DNA of 39,293 nucleotides, from the IMG/VR virus record IMGVR_UViG_3300006086_000002; one strand, written 5' to 3'. This document shows, piece by piece, positions 1,082 to 38,501 of the stretch (positions are counted from its first letter, which is position 1; each line of letters opens with the position of its first letter). Source of the DNA: a virus. A program made the position numbers and the translations under genes. Under the pieces are notes generated by a model. It saw nothing but the letters and a program-made list of their open reading frames with translations, ran no database searches and was not told the origin of the DNA.

Positions 1082-2050
1082 ATGTCCTATCAGCCCCTAA
1101 ATACCGTGACCAGTGCCTTGCGGTCCATCGGGGCATTGGCCTCGGGGGAGGCGCCTGACTCCGCCACGGCCACCGACTGTTTCAACCTGCTCAATGAAAT
1201 GCTCGATATGTGGAGCAATGACCGGACGCTGATCTACACGCAGCAGGAGGTCATTATCGAGTTGCAGGGTGGCAAGTACCAGTACACGATTGGTCTTGCC
1301 GGGACGGATGCTTCCACCACTTTTACGGGGTCATTTGCTAGCACGCTGATGACGGTATCGGCTATTTCTTCGGGGGCTGTGTGTCAAGGTCAAATCATCG
1401 ACACGACGACTGGAACGGGAACATTGGTAAGCGGGACCGCGATCACATCATTTGGAAGCGGGAACGGCGGGAACGCCAGCGGGGCGTTAGGGACCTACGG
1501 GATCAATATCCCGAACACTATAACGAGCGGGACAGTGACGGCACATTCCGCCCGCCCCCTTCGGGTAAATTCCGCAATCGTGAGGATCGTTAACAGCGCG
1601 ACGGGAACCCTGGACTATCCCTGCGCGGTCCTCTCATATGAGGAATACCAGGATATCGGCATCAAGACTCTGCCAGGCCCATGGCCGCGAGCGGTCTACT
1701 ACCAGCCGACCATGCCCGTGGGAACGTTCAGCTTCTGGCCGAACCCTAGCCAGGGGGAAATGCACCTTTACTGCGATACGGTGCTAAATAACTTTGTAAC
1801 GCTATACGATACGGTGACGCTCCCGCAGGGGTATCAATCGCTCATGCACTGGGGGCTCGCGGATCTGCTCATGCCGGAGTTTGGCAAGAAAGACCCCGAG
1901 CAGATCCAGATGGTCCGCATGAACCTTGCCCGGGCTCGAAGGGTCGTGGAGCGCACCAATATGCATCCGCAGCAACCGGCTAGGTTTGATCCGGCGTTGC
2001 AGCAAAAGGCCACGCGCGATGCTGGCTGGATCCTGTCGGGGGGTCAATGA
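1082..2050 (+). CDS. Head-to-tail adaptor (P22 gp4 / T7 gp11 tail tubular protein A-like N-terminus)
   Basis: The N-terminus SALRSIGALASGEAPDSATATDCFNLLNEMLDMW matches the adaptor signature (P22 gp4 [36 protein letters not shown]; T7 gp11 NDILASIGEPPVS...). It lies downstream of the coat module. Confidence 0.6.
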   Translation: MSYQPLNTVTSALRSIGALASGEAPDSATATDCFNLLNEMLDMWSNDRTLIYTQQEVIIELQGGKYQYTIGLAGTDASTTFTGSFASTLMTVSAISSGAVCQGQIIDTTTGTGTLVSGTAITSFGSGNGGNASGALGTYGINIPNTITSGTVTAHSARPLRVNSAIVRIVNSATGTLDYPCAVLSYEEYQDIGIKTLPGPWPRAVYYQPTMPVGTFSFWPNPSQGEMHLYCDTVLNNFVTLYDTVTLPQGYQSLMHWGLADLLMPEFGKKDPEQIQMVRMNLARARRVVERTNMHPQQPARFDPALQQKATRDAGWILSGGQ

Positions 2051-6844: not shown

Positions 6845-8557
6845 ATGCCTGACTTTGGTTTCTGCGGCCCCTCATACACCGCGCGCTCTATCTACCAGAA
6901 CGCGGATGAGTGTATAAATTGGTTCCCCGAGGTCTCGGAGGAACCAAGGCCCGATGATCGCGGCAAGGTGACGCTTTATCCCGTCCCTGGAAAGCCAACA
7001 CTATTCCAGTTTGCCGATCAGGCCGAGGTAAGGGCTTTGCAACCGCTATCCGGTAGCACGATCATGCTTGCTGTTTGCGGATCCAGTGTCTACGCGGTAA
7101 GCACAGGCTTTGTTCCTACGTTCGTCGGTAGCTTGACGACTAGCTCCGGACCTGTCTCTATTGCCGATAACGGGACATGGGCGATGCTGGCGGATGGGGT
7201 GTCGCGCTATGTCTATCTCTTCGGGTCTGCTGCTGGAATCACCACGGGATATTTCACGAACCTAGCGACGAACAGTTTCATGGGATACATCGTCCCTTCT
7301 GGCGGTGGCGGTCTGCTAACTATCACCAGCGTTACCAGTGGGCTAGTCGGGCTATTCCAGGTTGTATCCGGTGCCGGGGTAAGCGCAGGACAGACGATCA
7401 CTGCATTCGGCACCGGGACGGGCGGGGTCGGGACGTACAGTGTTTCTGTATCGCAAACGCTTGGAAGCGCCGGTGTTCCCGTAGCCATGACGGTTGCGGA
7501 CGGGGCTTTTACGGCATCCAACTTCGTGCAGGAAGTCGATACGTTCTTTGTCTATACGAATCCGAACAGCAATGAATGGGGATCCAGCAACAGCGGTGCA
7601 CCGGGGACGCCTACCTATGGATCGCCATCAAGCCAACCGCTCTCGTTCAGTTTCAAGGATGGTTCAGCGGACTTTTGTGTGGCACTCAAAATCGTCAACC
7701 GAGAGGTATGTCTACTCGGGGAACGAACGTACGAGTGGTGGGTTGATCAGGGCTCCTTCCCTTTTCCTTTCGTGCGTCTGCCTGGCACTAGTGGTCAGCA
7801 CGGCTGCGCTGCTCCTTATTCTGTTTCTCGCCTGGGTGAATCCTTCGCATGGCTAGTCAAGGATGATCGCGGACAGTGCCAGATCATGCAGTTTCGCGGA
7901 TATATCCCGGAGCGTATCAGCACGTTTGCCGTCGAGGACGCAATCAGCGGATACGCGATCATCACGGATGCGCGGGCCTATACCTACAAGGCTGATGGGC
8001 ATGAGTTCTACGTTATCAACTTCCCTTCCGCCGATGTGACATGGGTATATGACGAGATGACCCATATGTGGCACAAGCGCGCTTGGAGGGATAACTTCAA
8101 CGTCTTGCATCGGGATCGCGGGAACTGTGCTTGCAACTTTGCGAACCAGATCGTTGTCGGGGACTGGCAGAACGGCAATGTGTATGCATTGCAAGACAAT
8201 GTGTATACCGATGCTGGCGGCGTTCCGATGTATCGGCTACGGCAAGCTCCTCACCTGACCAAAGACCTGCAACGCCTGAGCCATCATGAACTCCAACTCC
8301 AATTTCAGCCCGGCGTTGGTCTTGCGACTGGACAGGGATCGAACCCTACCGCCATGCTCCAATGGAGCGATGATGGCGGATCTACGTTCGGGAACGAACA
8401 TTGGACGAGCATCGGAGTTCAGGGAGCCTACAAGAATCGCGCCATCTGGCGGCGTCTTGGTGTTGCCCGGGACCGCATCTATCGAGTCGTGGTGACGGAC
8501 CCGATTAACGCGGTCATCGTCTCGGCGGAACTCAAGGGCACAGAGGACGCGCACTGA
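6845..8557 (+). CDS. Tail nozzle / tail tubular protein B-like (P22 gp10-like)
   Basis: 570 aa. The C-terminus NRAIWRRLGVARDRIYRVVVTDPINAVIVSAELK parallels the P22 gp10 C-terminus KRVLWKRVGRIRRLIGFKLRVITKSPVTLSGCQIRLE. Size and position fit. Confidence 0.7.
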   Translation: MPDFGFCGPSYTARSIYQNADECINWFPEVSEEPRPDDRGKVTLYPVPGKPTLFQFADQAEVRALQPLSGSTIMLAVCGSSVYAVSTGFVPTFVGSLTTSSGPVSIADNGTWAMLADGVSRYVYLFGSAAGITTGYFTNLATNSFMGYIVPSGGGGLLTITSVTSGLVGLFQVVSGAGVSAGQTITAFGTGTGGVGTYSVSVSQTLGSAGVPVAMTVADGAFTASNFVQEVDTFFVYTNPNSNEWGSSNSGAPGTPTYGSPSSQPLSFSFKDGSADFCVALKIVNREVCLLGERTYEWWVDQGSFPFPFVRLPGTSGQHGCAAPYSVSRLGESFAWLVKDDRGQCQIMQFRGYIPERISTFAVEDAISGYAIITDARAYTYKADGHEFYVINFPSADVTWVYDEMTHMWHKRAWRDNFNVLHRDRGNCACNFANQIVVGDWQNGNVYALQDNVYTDAGGVPMYRLRQAPHLTKDLQRLSHHELQLQFQPGVGLATGQGSNPTAMLQWSDDGGSTFGNEHWTSIGVQGAYKNRAIWRRLGVARDRIYRVVVTDPINAVIVSAELKGTEDAH

Positions 8558-8928
8558 TGGCCTATCAGGGGAATAGCTATATCTCGGTATCCGGCCAAGG
8601 TCAGAACTTCGCCGGGATGCCCAAGCCTATTGCCAAGCCACTGAAGGAAGATGGGACGTTTACACAAGACACTTGGCGTTACCTCGCATCGTTCAGCGGG
8701 CCCCCACCGCAGGAAATGCCGATCACTTTGGGGCCGAGTCCTGCTACGTTTCAGGCGATTTCCAATGGTTCCGTATTAGTGTCTGGCGGGACTGTCTCTT
8801 TGGTGTCATTAAAGAGGAATAAGACATATAATCTCAGTGGGTCGTCAGGGTTATTTCCTCTTTCCATTGGCGATGTTTTAACGATTACTTACACGGTTGC
8901 ACCGACATGCGTGTGGTTTCCTCGGTAG
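8557..8928 (+). CDS. Hypothetical tail-module protein
   Basis: 123-aa ORF with a TGATG overlap to the nozzle gene. Confidence 0.6.
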   Translation: MAYQGNSYISVSGQGQNFAGMPKPIAKPLKEDGTFTQDTWRYLASFSGPPPQEMPITLGPSPATFQAISNGSVLVSGGTVSLVSLKRNKTYNLSGSSGLFPLSIGDVLTITYTVAPTCVWFPR

Positions 8929-9740
8929 ATCATCTTCCTGCGCTTGCGGAAACGCAGAGCAAATTGCTTGCGATGCCACAGGCAAGGATTGATGTTGTCC
9001 ATAAGTTTTATCCTGGGCATTACATCCGTGAAATGCGAGCTCCTGCGGGGACCATCGTTCTAGGGGCGATCCACAAGTTTGCGACGCTCAATATCTGCCT
9101 GCAAGGGGCTGGACAGTTCCGTAACGCGGATGGATCTGTCGGGGAAGTGAGGGCTCCGTTTACCTTTGTCAGTCCTCCGGGGCGCAAGGCGATCTTTGTG
9201 ACGCAGGATTTGGTATGGCAGAACGTATGGCAGACGGATCTTATCGACCTTGAGGTAATCGAAGCGTATCTCTTCGAGAAGGACGAGGAACAAAAGCGGG
9301 TGGAGTTCGAGCGGTACGAGCTTGCTTGGGAATCGCATGAGAAGGACCGGCAGGATTACCGGCCCATGCTGGAGAACATCGGGTTATCTGCTGAACGGGT
9401 AACTGAATTGACGGTGAATACCAATGACCAGGTGGGATTGCCTTACGGGGATTACAAATTCCGCTTTGGCGTCTCTCCTATACACGGTGTGGGTACTTTG
9501 GCTACTGCGGATATCGAAGAGGGGGAGATGATCGGGATTGCGCGGATCGGCGTCATGCGCACTCCGCTGGGTCGGTACATGAATCATTCTGTCGCCCCTA
9601 ACGCCATTGGGCGGATGATCGGTTCCAATATCGGGGTTTTTGCGACACGTCGCATTAAAGGCGACGGAAGCACGATTGGAGGGGGAGAAGAGATAACCAT
9701 AGATTACAGGGACGCGGTAAAGCTGTCCCGGGAGCATTGA
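8907..9740 (+). CDS. SET-domain protein lysine methyltransferase fused to an N-terminal domain of unknown function (possibly cupin-like)
   Basis: The C-terminal half has the SET signatures IHGVGTLATADIEEGEMIG (GxG..A), RYMNHSVAPN (NHSxxPN, nt 9581-9589) and GEEITIDY (ELxxDY, Tyr codon 9705-9707). The start is uncertain (8907 or 8973). Confidence 0.8.
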   Translation: MRVVSSVDHLPALAETQSKLLAMPQARIDVVHKFYPGHYIREMRAPAGTIVLGAIHKFATLNICLQGAGQFRNADGSVGEVRAPFTFVSPPGRKAIFVTQDLVWQNVWQTDLIDLEVIEAYLFEKDEEQKRVEFERYELAWESHEKDRQDYRPMLENIGLSAERVTELTVNTNDQVGLPYGDYKFRFGVSPIHGVGTLATADIEEGEMIGIARIGVMRTPLGRYMNHSVAPNAIGRMIGSNIGVFATRRIKGDGSTIGGGEEITIDYRDAVKLSREH

Positions 9741-9741
9741 T

Positions 9742-10533
9742 ATGTCTGCATGGGTAGCTGGTGCTGTAATTGTTGGTGGTGTTGCGGGGGCTGCGATTAG
9801 TTCGGACGCCTCTCGCTCTGCATCGAATAAGCAGGCGGACGCAGCCAAGAATGCGACCAATACGCAACAAGGGATGTTCAATAGCATCCAAGGGAACATG
9901 CAGCCTTTTGTCTCTGGCGGGCAACAGGACTTTAGCCAGCTTCAGCAGTACATGAATGCGGACCAGACCGGAGGCCCTGGTGGAGCCCCGGGACTTCTCC
10001 ATACCTTCGGGCCGCAGGATCTGCAAGCCAACCTTGCCCCGAACTACCAATTCCAGCTTGGGCAGGGAATGGGGATGCTCCAGAACCAGAATGCCGCTAC
10101 GGGCGGGGCTGGGGGCGGGAACGCTTTTGCTGGGGAGCAAGCCTTTGCGCAGAACACGGCTGCGAGCGCGTACCAGAACGCTTATAACAACTACCAGAAC
10201 AACCAGAACGCCATTTATAGCCGACTTGGCAACCTCGCCCAGCTTGGACAGGCATCGGGCACGAACACGGCTCTGGGGGGCTCTGCGTTCGGCCAGGGGA
10301 TATCCAATACGATGGTCGGGCTTGGGAATGCGCAGGCTGCGGGGATCATGGGGCAGGCGAACGCCTATGGGCAGGGTCTGAACTCGATTACCTCGGGATT
10401 CATGTACGGGAATATGTCTCCTAGCGCCAACAGCCTGAATTACAACGGCGCTACGCCATATGGGATTCAGACCAGCGCCAGCGGCACGCTTCCCTCGCAG
10501 GATATTTACGCCAACATGGGAGCAATCGGATGA
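9742..10533 (+). CDS. Putative internal virion/ejection protein (P22 gp7 position), N-terminal TM, Q/N/G-rich
   Basis: 263 aa. The N-terminus WVAGAVIVGGVAGAAI is hydrophobic and the composition is low-complexity Q/N/G. The call rests on synteny with the P22 gp7-gp20-gp16 trio. Confidence 0.6.
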   Translation: MSAWVAGAVIVGGVAGAAISSDASRSASNKQADAAKNATNTQQGMFNSIQGNMQPFVSGGQQDFSQLQQYMNADQTGGPGGAPGLLHTFGPQDLQANLAPNYQFQLGQGMGMLQNQNAATGGAGGGNAFAGEQAFAQNTAASAYQNAYNNYQNNQNAIYSRLGNLAQLGQASGTNTALGGSAFGQGISNTMVGLGNAQAAGIMGQANAYGQGLNSITSGFMYGNMSPSANSLNYNGATPYGIQTSASGTLPSQDIYANMGAIG

Positions 10534-12002
10534 CCGTCTCCAATGTCGCAGTAGGCAATGCCCCGGTTCCATTTACCACGCAACTGGGGAACATGGTTTC
10601 CTTGCAACAGGGAATGCAGGATCTACAAAAGGGATCCATTTCGCTCCAGGCGCAGCAACAGGCCAACCAAGAGCGGCAGAACGTCATCCAGTTGACGCAG
10701 AACGATCCGGACTTCAAGCCGGGGCCGGATGGCATCGTGGATATGTCCAAGGTCATGCCAAAGCTCATGCAGGCCGCTCCGCAGACCTATGCCCAATATG
10801 CGCAGAACTTGAATACGGTCAACAACGGGGCGGCGAATACCAATGGCACGCTGATTGCGCTCGGTGGCGACCGGCTCAATGCAATGAGCGATGTAGCCAC
10901 ATCCGTCAATCATCCGGGAGTAACTGCGTCTGAAGTAATCGATACGATGACGGATTACAAGAAAGCAAACCCGCAGTCTGCTGGCGTGATCGATCAGTTC
11001 CTCGCAAGGGTTCCCGGCATGAACGAGGAGCAATTGCGCGGCGCTCTTTCTCATATTTCGCTACGCTCTAAGACCCTGGCAGAGCAGCAAGCGGCGCAGA
11101 ATGCTGGCGCTACGCCAGTCAATAGCGGAGGGCAAACGCAATTTGTCGCAACGCCCGGGAATATCAATGGGACTGCGCCAGGCACAAAGCTCGGCGTCCC
11201 GATTACGAACACGATTACTCCGGGAGAGCGCGAGAAACTTGTAACTGACCCCGTGTCTGGGCAGACAGTCATTGCTCACCTTGATGACAATGGGAACATT
11301 GTTTCCTCTCGCGCAGCAGCCGGAGGACAAGGAAACGGCACCGGGAGGCCAAACACAGGATTCCAAGCTATTCCTCCCGGGGAATCTGTTGCTTCTGGGC
11401 AACAGTTTCAATCAATCCGGGAGCAATCAAATGCTGCGGTGCAGCCAGCGCGCACGGCATCTTTCAATAACAAGCAGATTCTCGGGCTTCTCAATTCCGG
11501 CACCACTACGGGGCAGGGAGCGGAAACGGCCAAAAAGGTCTTTGGTTCGCTTGGTCTTGAATGGAGCAATGACGAGGGCAAGAATCTTGCCACGATGCAG
11601 CATTATCTAGCTCAGAACCAGATCGCGGCAGAGCAAACCATGGGGGTTCGCCATACTGATGCTGGGGGGCAGGAGGCTGGCGCTGTAACTGGGAATATCT
11701 CGATCCCGACCGAGGCTCTAAAAGGCATCGTAAAGACAAATGATGCCTTCTCTACGGCAATTCCTCTTTACAATCAAGGGATGGAGGCGGCAATCAAAAA
11801 GGGCGGATCTGTCTATGCCATTCGGCAATTTCGCAATGAATGGTCGCAAAACTTTGATCCGAACGTTTTCCGCTATCAGAACGCAATCCGCAATGGAGAC
11901 GCAGCAGAAAAGGCTGCAATCGAGCGCAGGTCGGACTTTCCGCAGATCATGCAACATGCTGCGGTGCTGCATAACCTGATTACGAATGGCGCTGCACAAT
12001 GA
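10530..12002 (+). CDS. Putative internal virion/ejection protein (P22 gp20 position)
   Basis: 490 aa with ATGA overlaps on both sides. Size and order match the P22 ejection protein set. Confidence 0.6.
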   Translation: MTVSNVAVGNAPVPFTTQLGNMVSLQQGMQDLQKGSISLQAQQQANQERQNVIQLTQNDPDFKPGPDGIVDMSKVMPKLMQAAPQTYAQYAQNLNTVNNGAANTNGTLIALGGDRLNAMSDVATSVNHPGVTASEVIDTMTDYKKANPQSAGVIDQFLARVPGMNEEQLRGALSHISLRSKTLAEQQAAQNAGATPVNSGGQTQFVATPGNINGTAPGTKLGVPITNTITPGEREKLVTDPVSGQTVIAHLDDNGNIVSSRAAAGGQGNGTGRPNTGFQAIPPGESVASGQQFQSIREQSNAAVQPARTASFNNKQILGLLNSGTTTGQGAETAKKVFGSLGLEWSNDEGKNLATMQHYLAQNQIAAEQTMGVRHTDAGGQEAGAVTGNISIPTEALKGIVKTNDAFSTAIPLYNQGMEAAIKKGGSVYAIRQFRNEWSQNFDPNVFRYQNAIRNGDAAEKAAIERRSDFPQIMQHAAVLHNLITNGAAQ

Positions 12003-13981
12003 GCGGACTGGATGACGTTCTAGCCGCTGGAAGTACGGCCCTAAAGGGCGCGCCGCCTTCGCCGCCGCAAGATGGGCTGGCGGATGTTTTGGCGGCTGGA
12101 AGCGTTGCAAAGCCTACACCTGAATCGCCTGTAACAAATAATGCAAGTCCCTCCTGGTTCAATTCCAATACAATCGAAGGGCGGGCAGCGAGAGGATTTA
12201 CAGGGCTTGCGGAAGGCGCTGCGAATTATGCAACCGGCCTTTATGGAACAATCGCAGGAGGCATTAGTGGCGCTGCCGATCTTGCTATCCAAAGAGTTCG
12301 CACCGGAGAATGGCATCCTGATTGGGCGGCAAAAACATCAGAGGACGTAAGAAATGCGCTCACCTATGTCCCACGCACCGATGTTGGAGCGGCTGGCGCT
12401 GCTCTTCCTAATCGCGCTCTTGAGGCCGCTACGAATGTTGAGAAATCCGCGTTTCCTAGCGAAGCTCCGATTGTTACCCATCCTGGCGAAGTCTTGGGCG
12501 AATGGGGCAACGAGCGCGCTGGCCCTCTTGCTGGCGCTTTGTTATCCGCCGCTCCTTCTGCCCTTGGTGTTGCGCTGGGCGCAAGGAAACCAACCGAAGG
12601 GACTGCGCCAATTGAGCGACCGGGAGTATCTAATCCTGCTCCAGAAGTCGCACGGCCTGTACCAAACGGGCCTGACATGGGGGGACGAGTTACACCAGCC
12701 CCTTCCCTGGCACAAACGACTCCTGAAACGCAAGCCGCAGTAGCGCAGGTTGCGCAATCTGGTGGCATCCAGAATCCCGCTGCTCTAGGTCGCATCACCG
12801 AGGCAGATTCTCTTCCGGTTCCCATCAAGTTGACTACGGGGCAGGCGACGCAGGACGTTCGCCTCATGTCGCATGAGTTAAACACTCGCGGCGCGATCCC
12901 CGGAATGGCGGAACGGTTCAATGACCAGAATACGCAACTTGTCCAGAACTTAGGCGCGATCAGGAATAACGCCGCAGAAGGCGTAACGGCTACTTCAGCC
13001 CCCGATGTAGGGCAGGGGATTATCGACTCCTACCTGCGCAAAGATGCCCCCATTGCAGCGGATATCCGCGCTAAATACAAGGCGCTTGAAGATGCCAATG
13101 GCGGGGCGATGCCAGTTGCCGGAACGGACTTCGTTTCTGCTGCCGACGCAGCCCTAGCAAAGAACATGAAAACTCGCTATGTCCCGCCAGAGATTCGCGG
13201 GGTAATGGACGACGTTAAGTCCTCTGAGAATATGACCTTCGAACAATTCGAGACTTTGCGCACAGACCTGGCCGCTGCGCAGCGAAAAGCTAATCGCGCC
13301 GGTGACGGTAATGCTTCCATGGCGATAGGCACCGTCCGAGACTCACTAGAAAGCCTTCCAATGACCGGGGGCACGGCGGAACTAAAGGCTCTGGCAGACC
13401 AGGCGCGGAGCGCAGCCAAGGCTCGCTTTGACGCCATGCGGGCGGATCCTGCATATGACGCAGCGGTAAACGGCACCGTGGACCCTGACAAGTTTGTGCA
13501 GAAATTCGTCATCGGCGGGAGCCGTAGCGATGTTGCCGCGATGCGCGCAAATCTTGATTCCCTGGGACAGCAACATATGGCGGCTGGAGCCATGGATTAC
13601 CTATCACAACGCGCTGGCGTTCTAAATGGACAAGGGAACTTCTCGCAAGCGGGATTCAATAGAGCTATCTACGGACAGAATGGGCTTGCACCGAAGCTGA
13701 CGCAAATATTTGATCCGCAGACGGCGCAGCATGTTGAATCGCTGGCGAATGTCTCCCGCTACACGCAGGCGCAGCCTAGAGGTTCGTTCGTGAATAACTC
13801 AAATACACTTGTCGGCCACCTTGCCGAAAATGCCAAAAACAGCGCGGAAGGGGCAGCAAACGTCTTCGCTGGCGGCGTTCCCGTTGGAACATGGGCTCGC
13901 AAGGCGATAGAGAAAATACAAGTCAATAGGCAGGCAAAGAAATCCCTTAATCTTGCCGAAGCCTTGAAGATGAAGCAATGA
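11999..13981 (+). CDS. Putative internal virion/ejection protein (P22 gp16 position)
   Basis: 660 aa, translationally coupled. Size and order match the P22 ejection protein set. Confidence 0.6.
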   Translation: MSGLDDVLAAGSTALKGAPPSPPQDGLADVLAAGSVAKPTPESPVTNNASPSWFNSNTIEGRAARGFTGLAEGAANYATGLYGTIAGGISGAADLAIQRVRTGEWHPDWAAKTSEDVRNALTYVPRTDVGAAGAALPNRALEAATNVEKSAFPSEAPIVTHPGEVLGEWGNERAGPLAGALLSAAPSALGVALGARKPTEGTAPIERPGVSNPAPEVARPVPNGPDMGGRVTPAPSLAQTTPETQAAVAQVAQSGGIQNPAALGRITEADSLPVPIKLTTGQATQDVRLMSHELNTRGAIPGMAERFNDQNTQLVQNLGAIRNNAAEGVTATSAPDVGQGIIDSYLRKDAPIAADIRAKYKALEDANGGAMPVAGTDFVSAADAALAKNMKTRYVPPEIRGVMDDVKSSENMTFEQFETLRTDLAAAQRKANRAGDGNASMAIGTVRDSLESLPMTGGTAELKALADQARSAAKARFDAMRADPAYDAAVNGTVDPDKFVQKFVIGGSRSDVAAMRANLDSLGQQHMAAGAMDYLSQRAGVLNGQGNFSQAGFNRAIYGQNGLAPKLTQIFDPQTAQHVESLANVSRYTQAQPRGSFVNNSNTLVGHLAENAKNSAEGAANVFAGGVPVGTWARKAIEKIQVNRQAKKSLNLAEALKMKQ

Positions 13982-17062: not shown

Positions 17063-17308
17063 ATGAGCGATTCATCGGATTTCATTGTTGGCGAGGTCAG
17101 GGGCCAGCTTGTCGGTATCAAAGAGTCCGTTGATCGCATCGAACGACGCTTCGAGTCCATGTCGGAGAAGGTGGACGAGGTTGAGAAAAAGGTCGAGTCC
17201 ATGGAAACGAACGTAAAACTTGGCTGGAAGGTCCTGTCCGTCATTGGCCTGGCTGCTGGTGCTGGCGGGGCTGGGGCCAAGCATCTCTTAGAGCAGTTCT
17301 ACAAATGA
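17063..17308 (+). CDS. XhlA-like / holin-associated membrane protein (coiled coil + C-terminal TM)
   Basis: 81 aa. A charged heptad region (ESVDRIERRFESMSEKVDEVEKKVESMETN) is followed by the TM segment WKVLSVIGLAAGAGGAGA. There is an ATGA overlap with the endolysin gene. Confidence 0.5.
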   Translation: MSDSSDFIVGEVRGQLVGIKESVDRIERRFESMSEKVDEVEKKVESMETNVKLGWKVLSVIGLAAGAGGAGAKHLLEQFYK

Positions 17309-17733
17309 ACCTCGAAGACCAGCTTCGCCGGGACGAGGGCGTGCGGTATGACGCCTACAAGGACACGCTCGGCAACTGGACTACCGGCGTAGGCCACCTG
17401 ATCCAATCCAACGAACAATGGATGATTGCCGCGCACCTGACGGACGATCAGGTAAACCAAATCCTCGACGCAGATATCGCCATTGCTCAAGCCGGGTGCC
17501 TGCGGTATCCCTGGCATGACAAGCTGGACCCGGTTCGTCAGGCAGCGGTAACCAATATCGTATTTAATATGGGGATCGGCAACTTCGCGGAGTTCCACAA
17601 TACGATTGCCTGCCTCTCATCAGGGGATTGGAAGGGCGCCCACGACGGGCTGTTAAAATCGCTATGGGCATCCCAGGTGGGACAAAGGGCGATCCGGCTG
17701 GCGACGCAGATCCTTACGGGCGAGTGGCAGTAA
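17305..17733 (+). CDS. Endolysin, T4-type lysozyme (GH24)
   Basis: LRRDEGVRYDAYKDTLGNWTTGVGHLI matches the T4 lysozyme catalytic region [27 protein letters not shown] (E, D and T triad positions). Confidence 0.9.
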   Translation: MNLEDQLRRDEGVRYDAYKDTLGNWTTGVGHLIQSNEQWMIAAHLTDDQVNQILDADIAIAQAGCLRYPWHDKLDPVRQAAVTNIVFNMGIGNFAEFHNTIACLSSGDWKGAHDGLLKSLWASQVGQRAIRLATQILTGEWQ

Positions 17734-17755
17734 CATATTCCTTGCGAGGAACGCT

Positions 17756-17992
17756 ATGGCAATAAAGGATACGTTACGTGCGACCTTCACCGATAAGGAC
17801 GGAGCGTTCAGCATCCCTGAATTATCCGCGACTGGCGCTGCTTTGCTTGGTCTTGTTACTTCTGGTTGGGATTACTTTTATCGCGGTCATTCTCTCGATC
17901 TTCAGGCTCTTGGGATCGGCACTGGTGCGCTTGTCGCGGCTTTGGGAGTAGCCCAAAGGATACGCGACGGATTATTCCGGGAGGACCATTGA
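17756..17992 (+). CDS. Putative holin (two TM segments)
   Basis: 78 aa with two hydrophobic segments (ATGAALLGLVTSGW and LGIGTGALVAALGVA) and a charged C-terminus. It lies between the endolysin and the spanins. Confidence 0.6.
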   Translation: MAIKDTLRATFTDKDGAFSIPELSATGAALLGLVTSGWDYFYRGHSLDLQALGIGTGALVAALGVAQRIRDGLFREDH

Positions 17993-18471
17993 ACATCTAC
18001 TGGGTCATCGGCAAATATGTGGCTGTTGCTCTTATCGGCGCTGCTGGGTGTTATTGGGCCTACGCTATTCCTCGGGTTGCCGCTCTTAAGGAAGCATCGG
18101 CAAAGGCGGAAGCGGCTGCGGCTAAAGAGCGATCAACATTCCTAGAGGGAGCGAGAAATGAACAGGTCAGACTTCAAGGGCTGGTGGATGCGGCGAACCG
18201 GGCCGCTGACGACGCAAGAATGGCTCGTGATCGTGCTGCTTTCGATCTTGCTGCCGCTAATGCCAGGTTGCGCAACGCAAACAGCACCCTCTCAAATTAC
18301 CTTACAAGACTGCCCGAAGCCGCCAGTTGTCCAGTCTGTGAATCCTCCGCCGCAACCCTCGGGGACGTGGAGCAAAGAATGGCAGACTTTGGTGGACGAT
18401 GCAGCGCAGAGGTTGAAAGGCTTGGAGATTCCGTCCGATACTACGAAGAAGCCTTCGGAGTGAAGAAATGA
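17989..18471 (+). CDS. i-spanin (Rz-like)
   Basis: N-terminal TM (IYWVIGKYVAVALIGAAGCYWAYAI) followed by an Ala/Arg-rich coiled coil. The proposed TTG start at 17989 lies after GGAGGA; GTG at 18019 is an alternative. The upstream part of track ORF 17866.. overlaps the holin. Confidence 0.7.
   Translation: MNIYWVIGKYVAVALIGAAGCYWAYAIPRVAALKEASAKAEAAAAKERSTFLEGARNEQVRLQGLVDAANRAADDARMARDRAAFDLAAANARLRNANSTLSNYLTRLPEAASCPVCESSAATLGDVEQRMADFGGRCSAEVERLGDSVRYYEEAFGVKK
18158..18463 (+). CDS. o-spanin (Rz1-like lipoprotein), fully embedded in the +1 frame of the i-spanin gene
   Basis: RBS GAGGGAG upstream. The signal peptide ends in LLPLMPG|C (a lipobox-like cysteine) and the mature part is proline-rich (CPKPPVVQSVNPPPQPSG). 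Confidence 0.7.
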   Translation: MNRSDFKGWWMRRTGPLTTQEWLVIVLLSILLPLMPGCATQTAPSQITLQDCPKPPVVQSVNPPPQPSGTWSKEWQTLVDDAAQRLKGLEIPSDTTKKPSE

Positions 18472-18923
18472 ATGGTAATCGCCCGCCGAGACCATGGAAA
18501 AAAGAAACTAGGATTAGACATTTATTGCTAGGAAAAATTATCACAGAAAATGGATGTTGGATAAATCATCGCAAACCTCGTGAAGATGGGTATGTATCTA
18601 GAAATGGCTCTTATCAGCATAGGATTTCATATGAACTTTTAGTTGGAGAAATTCCACATGGAAAGCATATAGACCATCTATGTAGAAATAGGGCCTGTTT
18701 CAATCCAGAACATCTTGAGCCTGTTGAGCCTGCGGAGAATCTTCGAAGGGGGTTATCTTCACAATCTTCAAGGATCCGCGCTACGTATAGAACGCATTGT
18801 CCAAACGGACATGAATACACTGATAGTAATAAAGGAGTATGGACTGGCGGTACAAAAAGATGCAAAACATGCCAAAGATACAGGCAGATAAAATATAGGG
18901 CTTCCTTAAGGGCTGCATCATGA
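18468..18923 (+). CDS. HNH homing endonuclease
   Basis: HIDHLCRNRACFNPEHLEPVEPAENLRR is the DHxCxNxxCxNPxHL HNH signature. The segment is visibly more A/T-rich than its flanks. Confidence 0.85.
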   Translation: MNGNRPPRPWKKETRIRHLLLGKIITENGCWINHRKPREDGYVSRNGSYQHRISYELLVGEIPHGKHIDHLCRNRACFNPEHLEPVEPAENLRRGLSSQSSRIRATYRTHCPNGHEYTDSNKGVWTGGTKRCKTCQRYRQIKYRASLRAAS

Positions 18924-33711: not shown

Positions 33712-34180
33712 TATCCCGCAGGCGTTAATTGAAATGCTGGACTATGACTCAATCACTGGCGATTTCACATGGAAGAGTGATGGAGCGGTGGCTGGCTCTA
33801 ACGCTGGTCGTGGGTATCTGAAAATTGGTCATCGGGGCAGGAAATACTATTGCCATCGCCTTGCATGGGAGATGACCTACGGCGCGATTCCTGACGGCAT
33901 GTTAATCGACCATATCGACGGGAATAAATCAGACAACAGCATCGCCAATCTGAGGCTTGCTACAAAATCTCAGAATGGATGCAATAGCAAACTGAACAGT
34001 AAGAATAAATGCGGCCTCAAGGGAGTGTCATGGTTTCCTCCAATGAAGGCATGGGCAGTAGAAATTAGGATTGGGGATAAGAGGCTTCGCTTGGGATATT
34101 ATCCGAGCAAATATATGGCCCACAACGCATACCGTTTTGCTGCGGGCATAGTTCATAAGGAATTTGCCCGCCATGTCTGA
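33695..34180 (+). CDS. HNH homing endonuclease with AP2-type DNA-binding domain
   Basis: CHRLAWEMTYGAIPDGMLIDHIDGNKSDNSIANLRLATKSQN is an HNH motif. GLKGVSWFPPMKAWAVEIRIGDKRLRLGYYPSKYMAHNAYRFAA is AP2-like. The segment is A/T-rich and lies between terL and the portal gene. Confidence 0.85.
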   Translation: MPESTDIPQALIEMLDYDSITGDFTWKSDGAVAGSNAGRGYLKIGHRGRKYYCHRLAWEMTYGAIPDGMLIDHIDGNKSDNSIANLRLATKSQNGCNSKLNSKNKCGLKGVSWFPPMKAWAVEIRIGDKRLRLGYYPSKYMAHNAYRFAAGIVHKEFARHV

Positions 34181-36269
34181 TTCTTCCGATGTTGTTCTAG
34201 AAGCGGTTGAATTTCTCCGCAAGTCTAGTGATGCTGACTCCACCAACAGGTCCGAAGAGATGGAGGATCTGCGTTTTTCATATGGTGACCAGTGGAGTCA
34301 AACCATGCAAAATCAGAGGATATTAGAAAAACGTCCATTCTTCGTCATCAACGAGACGGAAACTTATATCCGCCAGATCACCAACCAGATCCGCCAGCAG
34401 CGTCCTCGGATCAAGGTTCACGGCATCAACAACTCGGCGGATGCCAAGATCGCGGAGATTATTACCGGGGTCACGAGGCATATCGAGCAGATCAGCGATG
34501 CGGATACCGCCTATGACACGGCCATGGAGTTCGCTGTCCGTATTGGTCGCGGGTATCTAAGGCTGACAGCGGATTACACGAACGATAAGAGCATGGATCA
34601 GGACATCCTCATCCAGCCGGTATTTAACCCGTTCACGGTCTATTTCGATCCCAATTCCATGCTGCCCGATGGCTCGGATGCCGAGGCTGCGCTAATCACG
34701 GATCTCGTGCCTAAAAAGGACTTTGAGCGGCTGTATCCCGATCAGGACATGACGGCATTCAATGCTCGGGCGACGGGTGATGTAACGGCGGAGTGGATCA
34801 CCAAAGACACCATCCGGGTGGCCGAGTTTTACAAGATCAACCAGCAAAAGCGCAAACTCATTCAGTTGACGGGCGGAGCGATCTACTGGGATGACGAGGT
34901 TCCAGACCTTGGCCTGATGGCGAAACACGGAATCAAGGTGAAAGGGGAAAGACCTTCCTGGCGCAAGCAGGTGTGCTGGTACAAGGTGACCGGCGTTAGC
35001 GTCCTCGAAGAGAGAGTGTTGCCTGGAAGATACATCCCTATCGTGCCGTTTTATGGCGCGCACATGATTGTTGATGGACGAACCTACCGATTTGGCGTGG
35101 TTCGAGCGGCCAAAGACCCTCAGCGGATGCTCAACTTCTGGCAGACGGCTGTGACGGAGCTAATCGCCCTGGCCCCGAAAGCGAAGACTGCCCTTGCAAT
35201 GGGCATGGATACCGGGTTTGAGGATGAGTGGGCGCAGGCAAACGTCAAATCCCTGCCAGTGTTGCATTACAACCACAAAGATGACGCTGGCGAGCCATAT
35301 CCGGCCCCCATGCCGATTGGGCAGTCTCCCGTACCGGAAGGGGCGATGGCTGCTGCGGAGGCCGCGCACAACAACCTACAGCGCGTGCTAGGCATGTTTG
35401 ACCCGGCGATGAATGCTCCAGGGAACCAGAGCGGGAAAGCCCTCAATTCCATGCAGCAGCAATCGGATATGAGCAATTTCCACTTCTATGACAATGGAAC
35501 GCGCTCGATCAAGCATGTGGGGAGAATCATTCTTAGCTGGCTGCCGACCTATTACGGCGAGAAGCGCGTCCTGCGGATCATTGGCGAGGATGGCAAGCCT
35601 GACACGATCACGATCAACGACACGGACGCTATTGGCAAGATCGAGAACGACCTGACCGTTGGCGAGTATGACGTGGTGATGGAAACCGGGCCGGGATACA
35701 ACTCCAAGCGCGAAGAGGGCGCGGAGATGATCGCGGCGATGGTGAAAGCTGACCCACAACTCATGCAGATTGCCGGGGATTTGCTGTTCCGCAACATGGA
35801 CTGGCCTGGGGCTGACATTATTGCCGACCGCCTGGCTGCTGCCAACCCGCTGGCGCAGATCGACGATAAGAGCGACATCCCCCCGCGTGCGCAGATGATG
35901 ATCAAGCAGCTTCAAACGCAGTTGCAGCAGGCTGGACAGCAGTTGCAGACGATGGGCCTTGCGCAGAAGTTCCAAGCGCATGTCGTGGCTGAGAAGGAGA
36001 TTGCCGAGACGCATCGTCAGGAACTCAAAGAGGATCGAGAAGACAAGCGCCGGGCCATGGAGAACGAGAGCTATGCCCACGAGATCCATACCAAAGCCCT
36101 TACGAGCCTTGGGGTCGCAGAGATCAACGGGATTATCCAGATCCTTACGAAGCACCTAGAGGCCGGAGAGAACGCCAAGGATCACGAGCGAGCGAAGGAG
36201 TTGGCAACGATTGAGCATGCGGCGGCCATGGAACAGGCTACTGCGGTTAATAACACCCCGGAGGATTAA
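34173..36269 (+). CDS. Portal protein (P22 gp1-like)
   Basis: [20 protein letters not shown] vs P22 [56 protein letters not shown] vs [36 protein letters not shown]. Like P22 gp1, it has a long helical Q/A-rich C-terminal barrel. I prefer ATG 34173 to TTG 34164. Confidence 0.92.
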   Translation: [698 protein letters not shown]

Positions 36270-37235: not shown

Positions 37236-38501
37236 ATGAGCAACAATCTGCTTACCATCTCCAAGATCACCAACCTGGCGTTGATGGTCTTGGAGAACGA
37301 GCTTACCTTCGCCAGCGAAGTCAATCGAGACTATGACGACCAGTTTGCGGTTTCTGGAGCGAAGATCGGTAACACGGTCAACGTCCGCCGTCCTGGCCGC
37401 TTCATCGGCACGACCGGCCCGGCGCTCAACGTTGAGGACTTCAACGAGACGAGCATCCCGGTTGTCCTGACGACCCAATTCCACGTTGATTGCCAGTTCA
37501 TCACGCAGGACATGGCCCTTAGCATGGATCTCTTCGGGGACCGTGTTCTCAAGCCCGCCATCGCTGCGGTTGCGAACCGCGTGGACCGTGACGGCCTCCT
37601 GATGGCTAAGAACAACACGGCGAATATCGTCGGTGTTCCCGGCACCCGTCCGACTGGTCTTCTGACCTACCTCACCGCTGCTGCCTACGTTGATTCGGAA
37701 GGTGGCCCGCGTGACGGTCGGCGTGCGGTGGTGATCGAGCCCTTTACGTCTGCGGTCATCGTTGACTCGATCAAGGGTCTGTTTGTCCCGCAGGAAGCCA
37801 TTGGCGAGCAGTATCGCAAGGGCCTGATGGGGCGTGACTCTGGCGGGATGAACTGGAAGATGGACCAGAACGTGATTGCTCATACCTTCGGGTCCTGGGC
37901 TACCACGGCTGGCACGCTGACGGCCAACACCTCGGGCGCTTTCACGGGCTCGCTGGCGACTGGATGGGCTGCTACCTCGACCATCACCCTGACCAACTCG
38001 CAGACTCTGACGCTCAACCAGGGCGACACGATCCAGATTGCGGGTGTGTTTGCGGCGAACCCGCAGAACCGTCAGACTTACGGCGGCAACATCCTGCGTT
38101 CATTTGTCGTGACGCAAACCGTTACGGCTACGGCTGGTACGTTCTCGGTCACCGTTACCCCGGCGATCATCACGGGCGGCCAGTTCCAGAACGTCGTGGT
38201 GGGATCGACTTCGGCTACGGCTACGGTTACCCCGCTCTCGATTGCTGGTACGACTGCAACGGCGGTTGTTTCTCCGCAGAACGTTCTTTTCCATCGGAAT
38301 GCGTACACCCTTGCGGTGGCCGATCTTCCGGTGCCTGAGGGCGTTGACTTTGCGGGCCGGGCAAGTGACGAGGAGACTGGGCTTTCGCTGCGGATCGTGC
38401 GTCAATACACGATCAACAACGACGCGCTGCCGACTCGTATTGAAATCCTCTACGGCTGGGCGCCGCTCTATCAAGAGCTTGCCTGCCGCATCGCCGCTTA
38501 A
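37236..38501 (+). CDS. Major capsid (coat) protein, P22 gp5-like family
   Basis: The N-terminus ITNLALMVLENELTFASEVNRDYDDQFAVSGAKIGNTVNVRRPGRF fits the P22-coat family signature (..AL..LEN.L.....V.RDY...F....G.T..IR.P.+F). RBS GGAGA upstream and the position follows the scaffold gene. Confidence 0.9.
   Translation: MSNNLLTISKITNLALMVLENELTFASEVNRDYDDQFAVSGAKIGNTVNVRRPGRFIGTTGPALNVEDFNETSIPVVLTTQFHVDCQFITQDMALSMDLFGDRVLKPAIAAVANRVDRDGLLMAKNNTANIVGVPGTRPTGLLTYLTAAAYVDSEGGPRDGRRAVVIEPFTSAVIVDSIKGLFVPQEAIGEQYRKGLMGRDSGGMNWKMDQNVIAHTFGSWATTAGTLTANTSGAFTGSLATGWAATSTITLTNSQTLTLNQGDTIQIAGVFAANPQNRQTYGGNILRSFVVTQTVTATAGTFSVTVTPAIITGGQFQNVVVGSTSATATVTPLSIAGTTATAVVSPQNVLFHRNAYTLAVADLPVPEGVDFAGRASDEETGLSLRIVRQYTINNDALPTRIEILYGWAPLYQELACRIAA

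What the first reader, a model, noticed from the sequence alone, without database searches (positions are those of the whole stretch)
8907..9740. SET-domain methyltransferase fused to an unknown N-terminal domain, embedded in the virion/ejection-protein module
The C-terminal ~90 aa carry all three SET hallmarks in the correct order: GxG..A (IHGVGTLATADIEEGEMIG), NHSxxPN (RYMNHSVAPN) and the C-terminal ELxxDY (GEEITIDY).

SET lysine methyltransferases are eukaryotic chromatin enzymes. They are known in a few giant viruses and in intracellular bacterial pathogens as effectors, and are rarely discussed in tailed phages.

This gene sits between the nozzle gene and the three putative ejection proteins and is translationally coupled to its neighbours. 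Two possibilities follow. It may methylate virion proteins during assembly, or it may be packaged and injected to modify host proteins such as nucleoid or ribosomal proteins. The N-terminal ~170 aa (HKFYPGHYIREMRAPAGTIVLGAIHKF...) look like a separate, possibly cupin-like, domain.
Basis: partly seen in the sequence, partly recalled or inferred. Interest (0 to 1): 0.7.

Follow-up and report, generated by a model that had tools for sequence, protein, structure and literature searches.

The report
Phage cupin–SET lysine methyltransferase fusion
A short-tailed phage encodes a very small but apparently active SET-type protein methyltransferase fused to a cupin domain, in the gene slot just before its DNA-ejection proteins; hundreds of environmental phages carry the same unstudied protein, and its target is unknown.

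Summary
It passes Pfam SET's gathering score, its family profile matches MLL1 SET at 8e-11, and a high-confidence AlphaFold model (pLDDT 94, pTM 0.90) superposes on MLL1 SET and on RmlC-like cupins.

The SET domain is unusually small, shorter than PBCV-1 vSET, with the SET-I insert nearly deleted.

The protein is not a one-off. There are 506 representatives at 50% identity with E<=1e-30, at least 488 IMG/VR contigs, prophages of cultured Burkholderiales, and two cultured phages. The gene always lies between the P22 gp10-like hub and the gp7-like first ejection protein.

The cupin is the constant occupant of that slot. SET has been inserted, lost and once permuted, and the same SET subtype occurs alone on plasmid-like and P4-like elements. 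134 of 138 representatives keep the catalytic Asn-His-Tyr.

My best reading (about 0.4) is an accessory lysine methyltransferase delivered with the ejection proteins to modify a host protein. Methylation of the phage's own virion proteins is nearly as likely. I found no functional study. I rate it a new variant of a known kind, interest 0.6.

The parts
8907..9740 (+). Whole gene: 277-aa cupin-linker-SET protein (PHROG 34170, annotated 'unknown function')
   Evidence: ORF. Full-length PHROG 34170 match at E 4.3e-54. AlphaFold model with pLDDT 94.4 and pTM 0.90.
8976..9281 (+). N-terminal RmlC-like cupin (double-stranded beta-helix) domain, residues ~24-125; no HxH metal motif
   Evidence: Foldseek to cupins 3lag, 2fqp, 3d82: TM (target) 0.62-0.69, rmsd 2.8-2.9 A. 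Homologous to standalone phage cupins, PHROG 12032/24280. Conserved residues H32, Y39, R41, K94, W104.
9285..9416 (+). Helical linker (three helices, residues ~127-170); its C-terminal part travels with the SET module
   Evidence: DSSP helices 127-143, 145-157 and 162-170. The 'DRxDY...L...G' helix precedes SET in the permuted and standalone forms.
9447..9722 (+). Minimal SET domain, residues ~181-272 (SET-N plus SET-C, with SET-I reduced to ~8 residues)
   Evidence: Pfam SET above the gathering score. The profile matches MLL1 SET in two stretches, 181-211 and 220-270, and vSET at 185-272. Foldseek to MLL1 SET: rmsd 2.8-3.1 A, 25-27% identity.
9486..9494 (+). GxG motif (G194-V-G196), AdoMet-binding loop of SET-N
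   Evidence: G194 is conserved in 134/138 and G196 in 137/138 representatives.
9582..9602 (+). NHSVAPN motif (N226-N232)
   Evidence: N226 135/138, H227 135/138, P231 131/138, N232 134/138.
9690..9707 (+). EITIDY motif (E262-Y267) with the conserved C-terminal tyrosine
   Evidence: E262 136/138 and Y267 136/138. Aligns with EELTYDY of MLL1.
6845..8557 (+). Context: P22 gp10-like tail hub ('head closure Hc3' / Phage_stabilise)
   Evidence: PHROG 578 at E 8e-94. PF11134 is recorded for this gene on the source contig.
8557..8928 (+). Context: 123-aa ORF in the position of the P22 gp26 needle; overlaps the SET gene start by 22 nt
   Evidence: ORF. Only a weak PHROG hit. Position judged by comparison with P22.
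9742..10533 (+). Context: first ejection protein (P22 gp7-like), 263 aa; hydrophobic N-terminus, Q/N/G/A-rich, only 2 Lys
   Evidence: PHROG 598 'DNA ejection' at E 1.4e-18. Composition.
10530..12002 (+). Context: second ejection protein (gp20-sized, 490 aa)
   Evidence: Assigned from size and order compared with P22 gp20, 471 aa. No family hit.
11999..13981 (+). Context: third ejection protein (gp16-sized, 660 aa)
   Evidence: Assigned from size and order compared with P22 gp16, 609 aa. Conserved downstream of SET-cupin in several related loci.

Best explanation
The gene encodes one compact protein with three parts: a non-metal cupin domain, a three-helix linker and a minimal SET domain.

Shown here:
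- The SET part keeps every residue class that SET enzymes use to bind S-adenosylmethionine and methylate a lysine (GxG, NHSxxPN, ExTxDY).
- These residues are conserved across a large phage family.
- The gene always sits just upstream of the gp7-like first ejection protein, inside a P22-type morphogenesis operon.
- The cupin is the ancestral, constant occupant of that slot. The linker+SET module is an accessory that has been inserted, lost and once attached in the opposite order.

Inferred:
- The protein is an active protein-lysine methyltransferase, with the cupin acting as its anchor or targeting module.
- It is made late, together with the ejection proteins.
- The cupin associates it with the ejection-protein complex, so it is carried in the particle.
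- It is released into the next host cell with those proteins, where it methylates a cellular protein, such as a defence, nucleoid or envelope-associated protein, to the phage's benefit.

I put 'active SET methyltransferase fused to a cupin' at about 0.85-0.9. I put the full delivery-and-host-target story at about 0.4.
For: Enzyme identity:
- Pfam SET is above the gathering score.
- The family profile matches MLL1 SET at 8e-11 and vSET at 7.6e-7.
- The fold matches MLL1 SET at rmsd 2.8-3.1 A.
- N226-H227-Y267 are intact in 134 of 138 representatives that are each <50% identical to one another.

Single functional unit:
- pTM 0.90 for the two-domain model.
- SET is the only fusion partner seen for this cupin among the best 120 of 1328 cupin-family hits.
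- Two proteins carry the domains in reverse order.

Slot:
- The gp10-like gene upstream was found by tblastn in 47 of 80 viral loci.
- In two divergent loci, in prophages, in cupin-only phages and in PH1, the order gp10-like -> cupin(-SET) -> gp7-like 'DNA ejection' holds.

Accessory nature:
- SET+ proteins are scattered among cupin-only clades.
- P0211 (SET+) is 79% identical to a cupin-only Vibrio phage protein over 160 aa, and both end in GDLCQ.

Host target rather than virion target:
- The same linker+mini-SET subtype occurs alone in a P4-like integrase/AlpA/primase island, next to a primase/SSB cluster, and on ParA/RepA plasmid-like contigs. None of these contexts shows virion genes.

The module carries delivered enzymes in relatives:
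- A DarB-like or LPD38 giant polyvalent protein occupies the third ejection slot in Vibrio-type relatives.

Precedent:
- PBCV-1 'encodes and packages' vSET (PMC7019647).
Against: - There are no proteomic data showing that the fusion or the standalone cupin is in virions.
- The genes in the same position in model phages give no support. P22 gp14 is not among the four ejected proteins.
- Neither P22 gp14 nor T7 gp13 is detectably homologous to the cupin, so nothing can be transferred from them.
- The SET-I region, which helps form the substrate groove in canonical SET enzymes, is almost absent, so activity is not guaranteed.
- Only a handful of standalone homologs on other mobile elements were found.
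- Late co-expression with virion proteins fits methylation of those proteins equally well.
Confidence: 0.4

Rival explanations
1. Assembly-time modifier. The cupin acts as a morphogenetic factor or chaperone for the ejection proteins or tail hub, as suspected for the genes in the same slot in other podophages. The fused SET methylates lysines of the phage's own ejection or virion proteins before or during packaging. The purpose could be to tune their solubility or stability, or to shield lysines from host proteases or from conjugation-type defences. The enzyme itself need not be in the particle.
For: - The gene is translationally coupled to the ejection genes in a late operon.
- The cupin is strictly linked to the first ejection gene in both P22-like and T7-like phages.
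- The domains are rigidly fused, consistent with the cupin presenting a bound client to the SET active site.
- P22 gp14, in the same slot, is not an ejected protein and is annotated 'head morphogenesis'.
Against: - Very similar phages manage without SET: the cupins are 79% identical.
- The obvious candidate, the adjacent gp7-like protein, shows no lysine pattern that tracks with SET. The Lys-rich post-TM segment occurs in SET- phages too, and some SET+ phages have no Lys there.
- The same SET subtype occurs on elements with no virion genes in view.
Confidence: 0.3
2. Late intracellular effector that is not packaged. The enzyme methylates a host protein in the producing cell during late infection, for example to block an abortive-infection or assembly-sensing defence or to adjust lysis. 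Its place in the structural operon only provides late timing.
For: - Standalone homologs on plasmid-like and satellite-like elements imply a cellular substrate.
- SET is an accessory that is gained and lost.
Against: - This does not explain the exclusive and repeated fusion to the slot-specific cupin, including the permuted order.
- It does not explain the invariant position next to the ejection genes across very divergent phages.
Confidence: 0.12
3. Pseudoenzyme. The SET-like fold has lost catalysis because SET-I is deleted, and it serves only as a structural or binding module of a virion-associated cupin protein.
For: - SET-I is reduced to about 8 residues.
- Four of 138 representatives have degenerate motifs.
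- The Pfam model matches only its C-terminal part.
Against: - 134 of 138 highly diverged representatives keep Asn-His-Tyr, and the GxG glycines are conserved in 134-137 of 138. That is not expected without selection for cofactor binding and catalysis.
- vSET shows that very small SET domains can be active.
Confidence: 0.07

Closest known systems
PBCV-1 vSET (A612L), the minimal viral SET H3K27 methyltransferase (PDB 1N3J/3KMA)
   Same: Both are virus-encoded minimal SET domains without pre- or post-SET zinc clusters. They share the same catalytic motifs. Profile match E 7.6e-7 over residues 185-272; Foldseek TM (target) 0.63. vSET is packaged in virions and acts on the host after entry, which is the model for the favoured mechanism.
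   Different: vSET is a standalone 119-aa protein of a giant eukaryotic virus, and its substrate is a histone. The phage domain is shorter still: 88 profile positions align to 105 vSET residues. It is fused to a cupin, it infects bacteria that have no histones, and neither packaging nor substrate is known.
MLL1/KMT2A SET domain (e.g. PDB 2W5Y, 6U9M, 7U5V)
   Same: This is the best sequence and structure match: E 8e-11, 25-27% identity, rmsd 2.8-3.1 A. The SPIHGxG, RFxNHSxxPN and GEELTYDY segments align.
   Different: MLL1 has a ~42-residue SET-I between the two matched stretches, where the phage protein has ~8. MLL1 also has a post-SET region and needs the WRAD partners. The phage protein ends 10 residues after the DY tyrosine.
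Standalone phage cupin of the same slot (PHROG 12032/24280; e.g. Ralstonia phage phiAp1 gp43, RSK1 gp13, Vibrio phage VvAW1 gp04, Shewanella phage X14 gp38), mislabelled 'short tail fiber' or 'tail fiber adhesin'
   Same: Its cupin domain is homologous, with the shared HxFxxGxYxRE...G...AP...G...T.ETD motifs. It occupies the same position, directly upstream of the first ejection or internal virion protein.
   Different: It has no SET module (132-192 aa). Its function is also unknown, and the 'tail fibre' names are unsupported annotation transfers.
P22 gene 14 and T7 gene 13 (genes in the same slot in the model podophages)
   Same: They hold the same place in the gene order: hub/nozzle (then the needle in P22) -> this gene -> three ejection or internal core proteins. 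They are small proteins of the late operon.
   Different: There is no detectable homology: hhalign probability 0.2% and 3.5%. Neither appeared among the 49 significant BFVD fold matches. Neither has a SET domain.
Bacterial SET effectors and injected phage modification enzymes (Chlamydia NUE; from memory: Legionella RomA, T4 Alt, P1 DarB)
   Same: The concept is the same: a parasite delivers a protein-modifying enzyme into the host cell at entry. NUE is a secreted SET enzyme (PMC2904774, listed). A DarB-like polyvalent protein sits in the same module of relatives.
   Different: Those SET effectors act on eukaryotic histones. Here the host is a bacterium, and delivery has not been demonstrated.

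Membership tests
SET domain protein-lysine methyltransferases (Pfam PF00856) | Match to the family HMM above the curated gathering score | tested here: met
   26.4 bits for the whole protein and 31.4 bits for the C-terminal 107 aa, against a cut-off of 22.4. Only model positions 62-104 align.
SET domain protein-lysine methyltransferases (Pfam PF00856) | GxG AdoMet-binding loop in SET-N | tested here: met
   G194-V-G196. Conserved in 134/138 and 137/138 representatives. Aligns with SPIHGRG of MLL1.
SET domain protein-lysine methyltransferases (Pfam PF00856) | NHSxxPN motif (Asn and His contact the cofactor) | tested here: met
   N226-H-S-V-A-P-N232. N and H are each conserved in 135/138.
SET domain protein-lysine methyltransferases (Pfam PF00856) | C-terminal ELxF/YDY motif with the conserved tyrosine | tested here: met
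   E262-I-T-I-D-Y267. Y is conserved in 136/138.
SET domain protein-lysine methyltransferases (Pfam PF00856) | SET beta-fold | tested here: met
   Model pLDDT is 94-98 across the domain. Foldseek to MLL1 SET: rmsd 2.8-3.1 A over ~122 columns, probability 1.00. vSET: TM (target) 0.63.
SET domain protein-lysine methyltransferases (Pfam PF00856) | Pseudoknot topology (C-terminal segment threaded through the NHS loop) | not testable with these tools
   Model coordinates could not be inspected. Both segments that form the knot are present and were modelled with high confidence.
SET domain protein-lysine methyltransferases (Pfam PF00856) | SET-I insert between SET-N and SET-C (variable in length across the family, so not strictly defining) | tested here: inconclusive
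   About 8 profile positions here against ~42 residues in MLL1. The whole domain is 88 positions against 105 residues in vSET. The GxG-to-NHS spacing is a constant 32 residues in four family members. Whether the linker or cupin substitutes for SET-I is unknown.
SET domain protein-lysine methyltransferases (Pfam PF00856) | SAM-dependent methyl transfer to a protein lysine | not testable with these tools
   Needs a biochemical assay.
RmlC-like cupin superfamily | Double-stranded beta-helix (jelly-roll) fold | tested here: met
   Foldseek to 3lag, 2fqp, 3d82, 2q30 and others: E 5e-5 to 3e-4, TM (target) 0.6-0.69, rmsd 2.8-2.9 A.
Metallo-cupins (classical two-motif cupins) | G(X)5HXH(X)3-4E(X)6G metal-binding motif | tested here: not met
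   The family consensus at this place is PGxYIRE, with Y39-x-R41-E42 instead of HxH. Position H56 is H or Q about equally. No Pfam cupin family hit. It is a cupin by fold but not a canonical metal enzyme.
PHROG 34170 (phage protein family of unknown function) | Full-length match to the family profile | tested here: met
   E 4.3e-54; residues 18-272 align to profile positions 25-280 of 296.
P22 gp14 / T7 gp13 families | Detectable sequence homology | tested here: not met
   hhalign probability 0.2% (P22 gp14) and 3.5% (T7 gp13). Only gene position is shared.
Virion-packaged, ejected phage effector proteins | Presence in purified virions and release on infection | not testable with these tools
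   No proteome was found for any phage carrying the fusion or the standalone cupin.

The most novel reading that the evidence does not exclude
Tailed phages of bacteria carry a dedicated protein-lysine methyltransferase in their ejection apparatus. The cupin docks a minimal SET enzyme onto the ejection-protein complex. The enzyme then does one of two things. It may be injected ahead of the DNA and methylate a bacterial protein, such as a nucleoid-associated, envelope or defence protein, making it a prokaryotic counterpart of chlorovirus vSET. Or it may pre-methylate lysines of the ejected or virion proteins to make them invisible to lysine-directed host defences such as ubiquitin-like conjugation or proteolysis. 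Either way, lysine methylation would be a new layer of phage-host conflict. The cupin of this slot, present in more than a thousand podophage proteins, would become a newly recognised component of the podophage ejection machinery.
Probability: 0.35. Interest if true: 0.8.

Novelty: new variant of a known kind. Interest (0 to 1): 0.6.

Why it matters
Protein-lysine methylation by SET enzymes is a hallmark of eukaryotic chromatin. Its roles in bacteria are poorly understood and, as far as the searchable literature shows, unstudied in tailed phages.

This family is large and strongly conserved, and it has a fixed place beside the DNA-ejection genes. That gives a concrete, testable entry point:
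- two cultured phages (Rhodoferax P26218, Pseudoalteromonas PH1);
- prophages in cultured Cupriavidus, Paraburkholderia and Hydrogenophaga;
- natural SET+/SET- pairs among Vibrio-type podophages.

If the enzyme is delivered on infection, it would add lysine methylation to the known repertoire of injected phage enzymes (ADP-ribosylation, DNA methylation, RNA polymerase). If it modifies virion proteins, it would reveal a new maturation step in podophage assembly.

The work also corrects a widespread mis-annotation, in which the standalone cupin is called 'short tail fiber' or 'tail fiber adhesin'. And it describes what may be the most compact SET catalytic domain seen so far.

Tried and rejected
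1. Homology of the cupin to the genes in the same slot, P22 gp14 and T7 gp13. hhalign gave probabilities of 0.2% and 3.5%. A local 'FVTxDxVW' resemblance to T7 gp13 is not significant, and neither protein was among the significant BFVD fold hits. Rejected as homologs and kept only as positional analogs.

2. The adjacent gp7-like ejection protein as substrate. It has only 2 Lys in the window phage. I compared 46 SET+ and 9 SET- homologs. The Lys/Ala/Ser-rich segment after the hydrophobic N-terminus occurs in both groups, and several SET+ phages have no Lys there. There is no discriminating signal, so the idea is neither supported nor excluded.

3. The cupin as a generic carrier of variable cargo domains. 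Among the best 120 of 1328 cupin-family hits, the only fused domain is SET. P0022 has an extra 270-aa N-terminal region with no Pfam match. The generic-carrier idea is rejected.

4. Literature. Nine searches found no functional study of a SET protein in a tailed phage. There are only table entries, such as phage Ps15 ORF62, and the P26218 genome paper does not mention the domain. No virion proteome covers the fusion or the standalone cupin.

5. NCBIfam and PADLOC gave no hits.

6. Megablast of the first 20 kb of the window against GenBank phages found no match, so this is not a known phage.

7. Lysine content of the structural proteins showed nothing decisive.
Full report
**1. The observation**

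The window has an ORF from ATG 8907 to TGA 9738-9740 on the + strand, encoding 277 aa.

The upstream 123-aa ORF (8557-8928) overlaps the start codon by 22 nt. The next gene's ATG (9742) lies one base after the stop. The gene is therefore tightly coupled to its neighbours.

The 123-aa ORF lies in between.

**2. Is it a SET domain?**

Pfam SET (PF00856) is hit above its gathering score: 26.4 bits against 22.4, and 31.4 bits on the C-terminal 107 aa. Only the C-terminal part of the model aligns. The single sequence gives only marginal PDB hits, with MLL1 at E 0.008.

A 138-member family profile does much better. It hits MLL1 SET at 8e-11 in two stretches, SET-N 181-211 and SET-C 220-270, and PBCV-1 vSET at 7.6e-7.

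AlphaFold with 9 homologs gave pLDDT 79.7 and pTM 0.49. With 138 homologs it gave pLDDT 94.4 and pTM 0.90. Foldseek places the C-terminal half on MLL1 SET (rmsd 2.8-3.1 A, 25-27% identity) and on vSET (TM 0.63).

Across 138 representatives that are each under 50% identical to one another, conservation of the key residues is:

| Residue | Conserved in |
|---|---|
| G194 | 134/138 |
| G196 | 137/138 |
| N226 | 135/138 |
| H227 | 135/138 |
| E262 | 136/138 |
| Y267 | 136/138 |

In 134 of 138, Asn-His-Tyr are all present together. I take this as strong evidence for a catalytically constrained SET domain.

Its peculiarity is its size. The ~42-residue SET-I insert of MLL1 corresponds to about 8 positions here. 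The domain as a whole aligns as 88 positions to 105 residues of vSET, which a review calls the smallest histone methyltransferase. The GxG-to-NHS spacing is a constant 32 residues in four members. There are only 10 residues after the DY tyrosine, so there is no post-SET region.

**3. The N-terminal half**

No Pfam cupin family is hit. The classical HxH metal motif is replaced by Y39-x-R41-E42. The most conserved residues are H32, R41, K94, W104 and N106. It is a cupin by fold but probably not a metalloenzyme.

Three helices (127-170) connect it to SET. The pTM of 0.90 indicates a fixed mutual arrangement of the domains. No PDB entry covers both domains.

**4. Context in the window**

The window is a P22-type podophage genome. 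Its genes include:

- P22-like coat, PF11651, at 37236-38501
- portal at 34164-36269
- gp10-like hub, PHROG 578, at 6845-8557
- a gp7-like 'DNA ejection' protein, PHROG 598, at 9742-10533
- two further proteins of gp20 and gp16 size
- tail-fibre or depolymerase-like proteins, and a lysis cassette

. The order is collinear with P22 gp10-gp26-gp14-gp7-gp20-gp16, so the SET gene occupies the gene-14 slot. In T7-like phages the equivalent slot is gene 13.

The genome has no close DNA relative among GenBank phages. The same 39.3-kb contig exists in an ENA metagenome.

**5. The family**

- The fused architecture has 506 cluster representatives at E<=1e-30 in a 1.84-billion-protein library.
- At least 488 IMG/VR viral contigs encode it.
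- It corresponds to PHROG 34170, 'unknown function'.
- Among 50,697 GenBank phage records it occurs in only two cultured phages, Rhodoferax P26218 gp30 and Pseudoalteromonas PH1 gp49, plus a few metagenomic genomes. One of these was auto-annotated as 'pbcV-1 histone H3-lys 27 methyltransferase structure'.
- UniProt already names one uncultured-phage member 'SET domain containing protein'.
- Copies in the chromosomes of cultured Cupriavidus, Paraburkholderia and Hydrogenophaga lie in the same prophage module.

The gp10-like gene upstream was recovered by tblastn in 47 of 80 viral loci. In two loci too divergent for tblastn, profile searches still gave gp10-like -> small ORFs -> SET-cupin -> PHROG 598 ejection protein -> large DNA-transfer protein.

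**6. The cupin is the constant part and SET is the accessory**

A cupin-only profile finds 1328 proteins. The best 120 are either 132-192 aa with the cupin alone, or ~285 aa with SET. No other fusion partner appears.

Cupin-only genes lie directly upstream of the first ejection or internal virion protein. This holds in P22-like phages (Vibrio, Shewanella X14, Ralstonia RSK1) and in T7-like phages (Ralstonia phiAp1, Sphaerotilus R1). They align well with the N-domain. Their 'short tail fiber' and 'tail fiber adhesin' names have no visible basis.

In an NJ tree of the cupin domain there is one large SET-fused clade. Other SET+ proteins are scattered among cupin-only clades.

The clearest case is P0211, P0193 and P0267. 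These are 79% identical to the cupin-only protein of Vibrio phage 1.184.A over the first 160 residues, and they share its C-terminal GDLCQ tail. The linker+SET module is inserted between those two parts.

Two proteins, P0124 and P0136, have SET first and the cupin last. Their cupin is of the standalone ('GAKR') type. Repeated, order-independent fusion of the same two modules argues that they work together.

**7. The same SET subtype outside virion modules**

A 185-aa linker+mini-SET protein with the same motifs and spacing lies next to a primase/helicase-like gene and an SSB-like gene in a Rhodocyclales genome. Its relatives lie in:

- a P4-like island with integrase, AlpA and a PriCT_2 primase;
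- a position next to an SLT-domain protein;
- ParA/RepA_C/resolvase plasmid-like contigs

. These elements show no virion genes in the stretches recovered. That suggests a cellular substrate for this SET subtype. The sample is small.

**8. Mechanism**

Shown:

- a conserved, apparently catalytic SET domain rigidly joined to a slot-specific cupin
- a late-operon position coupled to the ejection genes
- accessory gain and loss of SET

Inferred: SAM-dependent lysine methylation of a protein substrate, with the cupin providing localisation or substrate presentation.

I favour, at about 0.4, that the cupin ties the enzyme to the ejection-protein complex, so that it is packaged and released into the next host to methylate a host protein. 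The reasons are:

- the standalone homologs on non-virion elements
- the dispensability of SET among near-identical phages
- delivered anti-defence enzymes in the same module of relatives: DarB-like in VvAW1, and a 2428-aa LPD38 polyvalent protein in L094
- the vSET precedent

Nearly as likely, at about 0.3, is methylation of the phage's own ejection or virion proteins during assembly. A non-packaged late effector (0.12) and a pseudoenzyme (0.07) are less likely.

A test of the most obvious substrate, the adjacent gp7-like protein, gave no signal.

**9. Comparison with the known, and novelty**

By sequence motifs and predicted fold this is a member of the SET superfamily. It is closest to MLL-type and vSET-type domains, and it is a cupin by fold. 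It is not detectably related to P22 gp14 or T7 gp13.

Automated annotation had recognised the SET domain in a few records. Nine literature searches found no study or discussion of this family, of the fusion, or of the slot-specific cupin (also 45 and 77).

I classify it as a new variant of a known kind: a SET methyltransferase with SET-I nearly deleted, rigidly fused to a non-metal cupin, and resident in the podophage ejection module. Interest is 0.6. The family is large, well conserved and experimentally accessible, but the substrate and the packaging status are unknown.

Noticed in passing
P0124 and P0136 (from; sequences): Two family members carry the domains in reverse order: linker+SET at the N-terminus and the cupin at the C-terminus. 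Their cupin is of the standalone 'GAKR' type, which suggests an independent fusion event.
   Followed up: partly
L129:4950-5507; L175:8001-8618; L176:3055-3672; L177:7183-7743; L178:4214-4774: Standalone linker+mini-SET proteins (185-205 aa) of the same subtype occur on other mobile elements: next to a primase/SSB cluster, in a P4-like integrase/AlpA/PriCT_2 island, next to an SLT-domain protein, and on ParA/RepA_C/resolvase/SNase plasmid-like contigs.
   Followed up: partly
L094:8469-12861 and L091:5974-8309 (Vibrio phage VvAW1 gp01): In Vibrio-type relatives the third ejection-protein slot holds a giant polyvalent protein (more than 2400 aa, with an LPD38 domain; annotated 'DarB-like antirestriction' in VvAW1). 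This suggests the module is used to deliver enzymes.
   Followed up: no
window 9742-10533: The gp7-like first ejection protein is strikingly low in charged residues: 2 Lys and 2 Arg in 263 aa. It is Q/N/G/A-rich after a hydrophobic N-terminus.
   Followed up: partly
window 1082-2050 and 6845-8557: The 322-aa ORF and the gp10-like hub both match PHROG 21413, at residues 30-165 and 149-221. The hub also matches a tail-fibre family (PHROG 38233) in the same segment. This looks like a shared inserted domain, which makes the hub about 100 aa longer than P22 gp10.
   Followed up: no
window 17305-18923: A lysis cassette (endolysin 17305-17733, Rz-like spanin 17866-18471) is followed directly by an HNH endonuclease gene (18468-18923, PHROG 826) that overlaps the spanin stop.
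   Followed up: no
window 1-39293: The window looks like a complete, circularly permuted phage genome. The portal, scaffold and coat genes are at 34-38.5 kb, and the rest of the morphogenesis module continues from position ~150. An ENA metagenome contig of 39,324 bp carries the same gene. No tRNA genes were found, and GC content is 54.7%.
   Followed up: partly
P0022 (545 aa): One family member has an extra ~270-aa N-terminal region with no Pfam match, in front of a normal cupin-SET. It could be a real fusion or a gene-calling artefact.
   Followed up: partly
L003:6950-7402, L086:3842-4357, L089:3755-4423, L090:3944-4504, L091:3920-4414: The standalone cupin proteins of this slot are annotated 'short tail fiber protein' or 'tail fiber adhesin' in RefSeq and PHROGs. 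Nothing in their sequence or fold supports a fibre, so the label appears to be a propagated mis-annotation.
   Followed up: partly
P0126, P0127, P0129, P0153: Four of 138 fused representatives have lost the Asn-His and/or Tyr catalytic residues but keep the domain. They may be lineages in which the SET has become non-catalytic.
   Followed up: no
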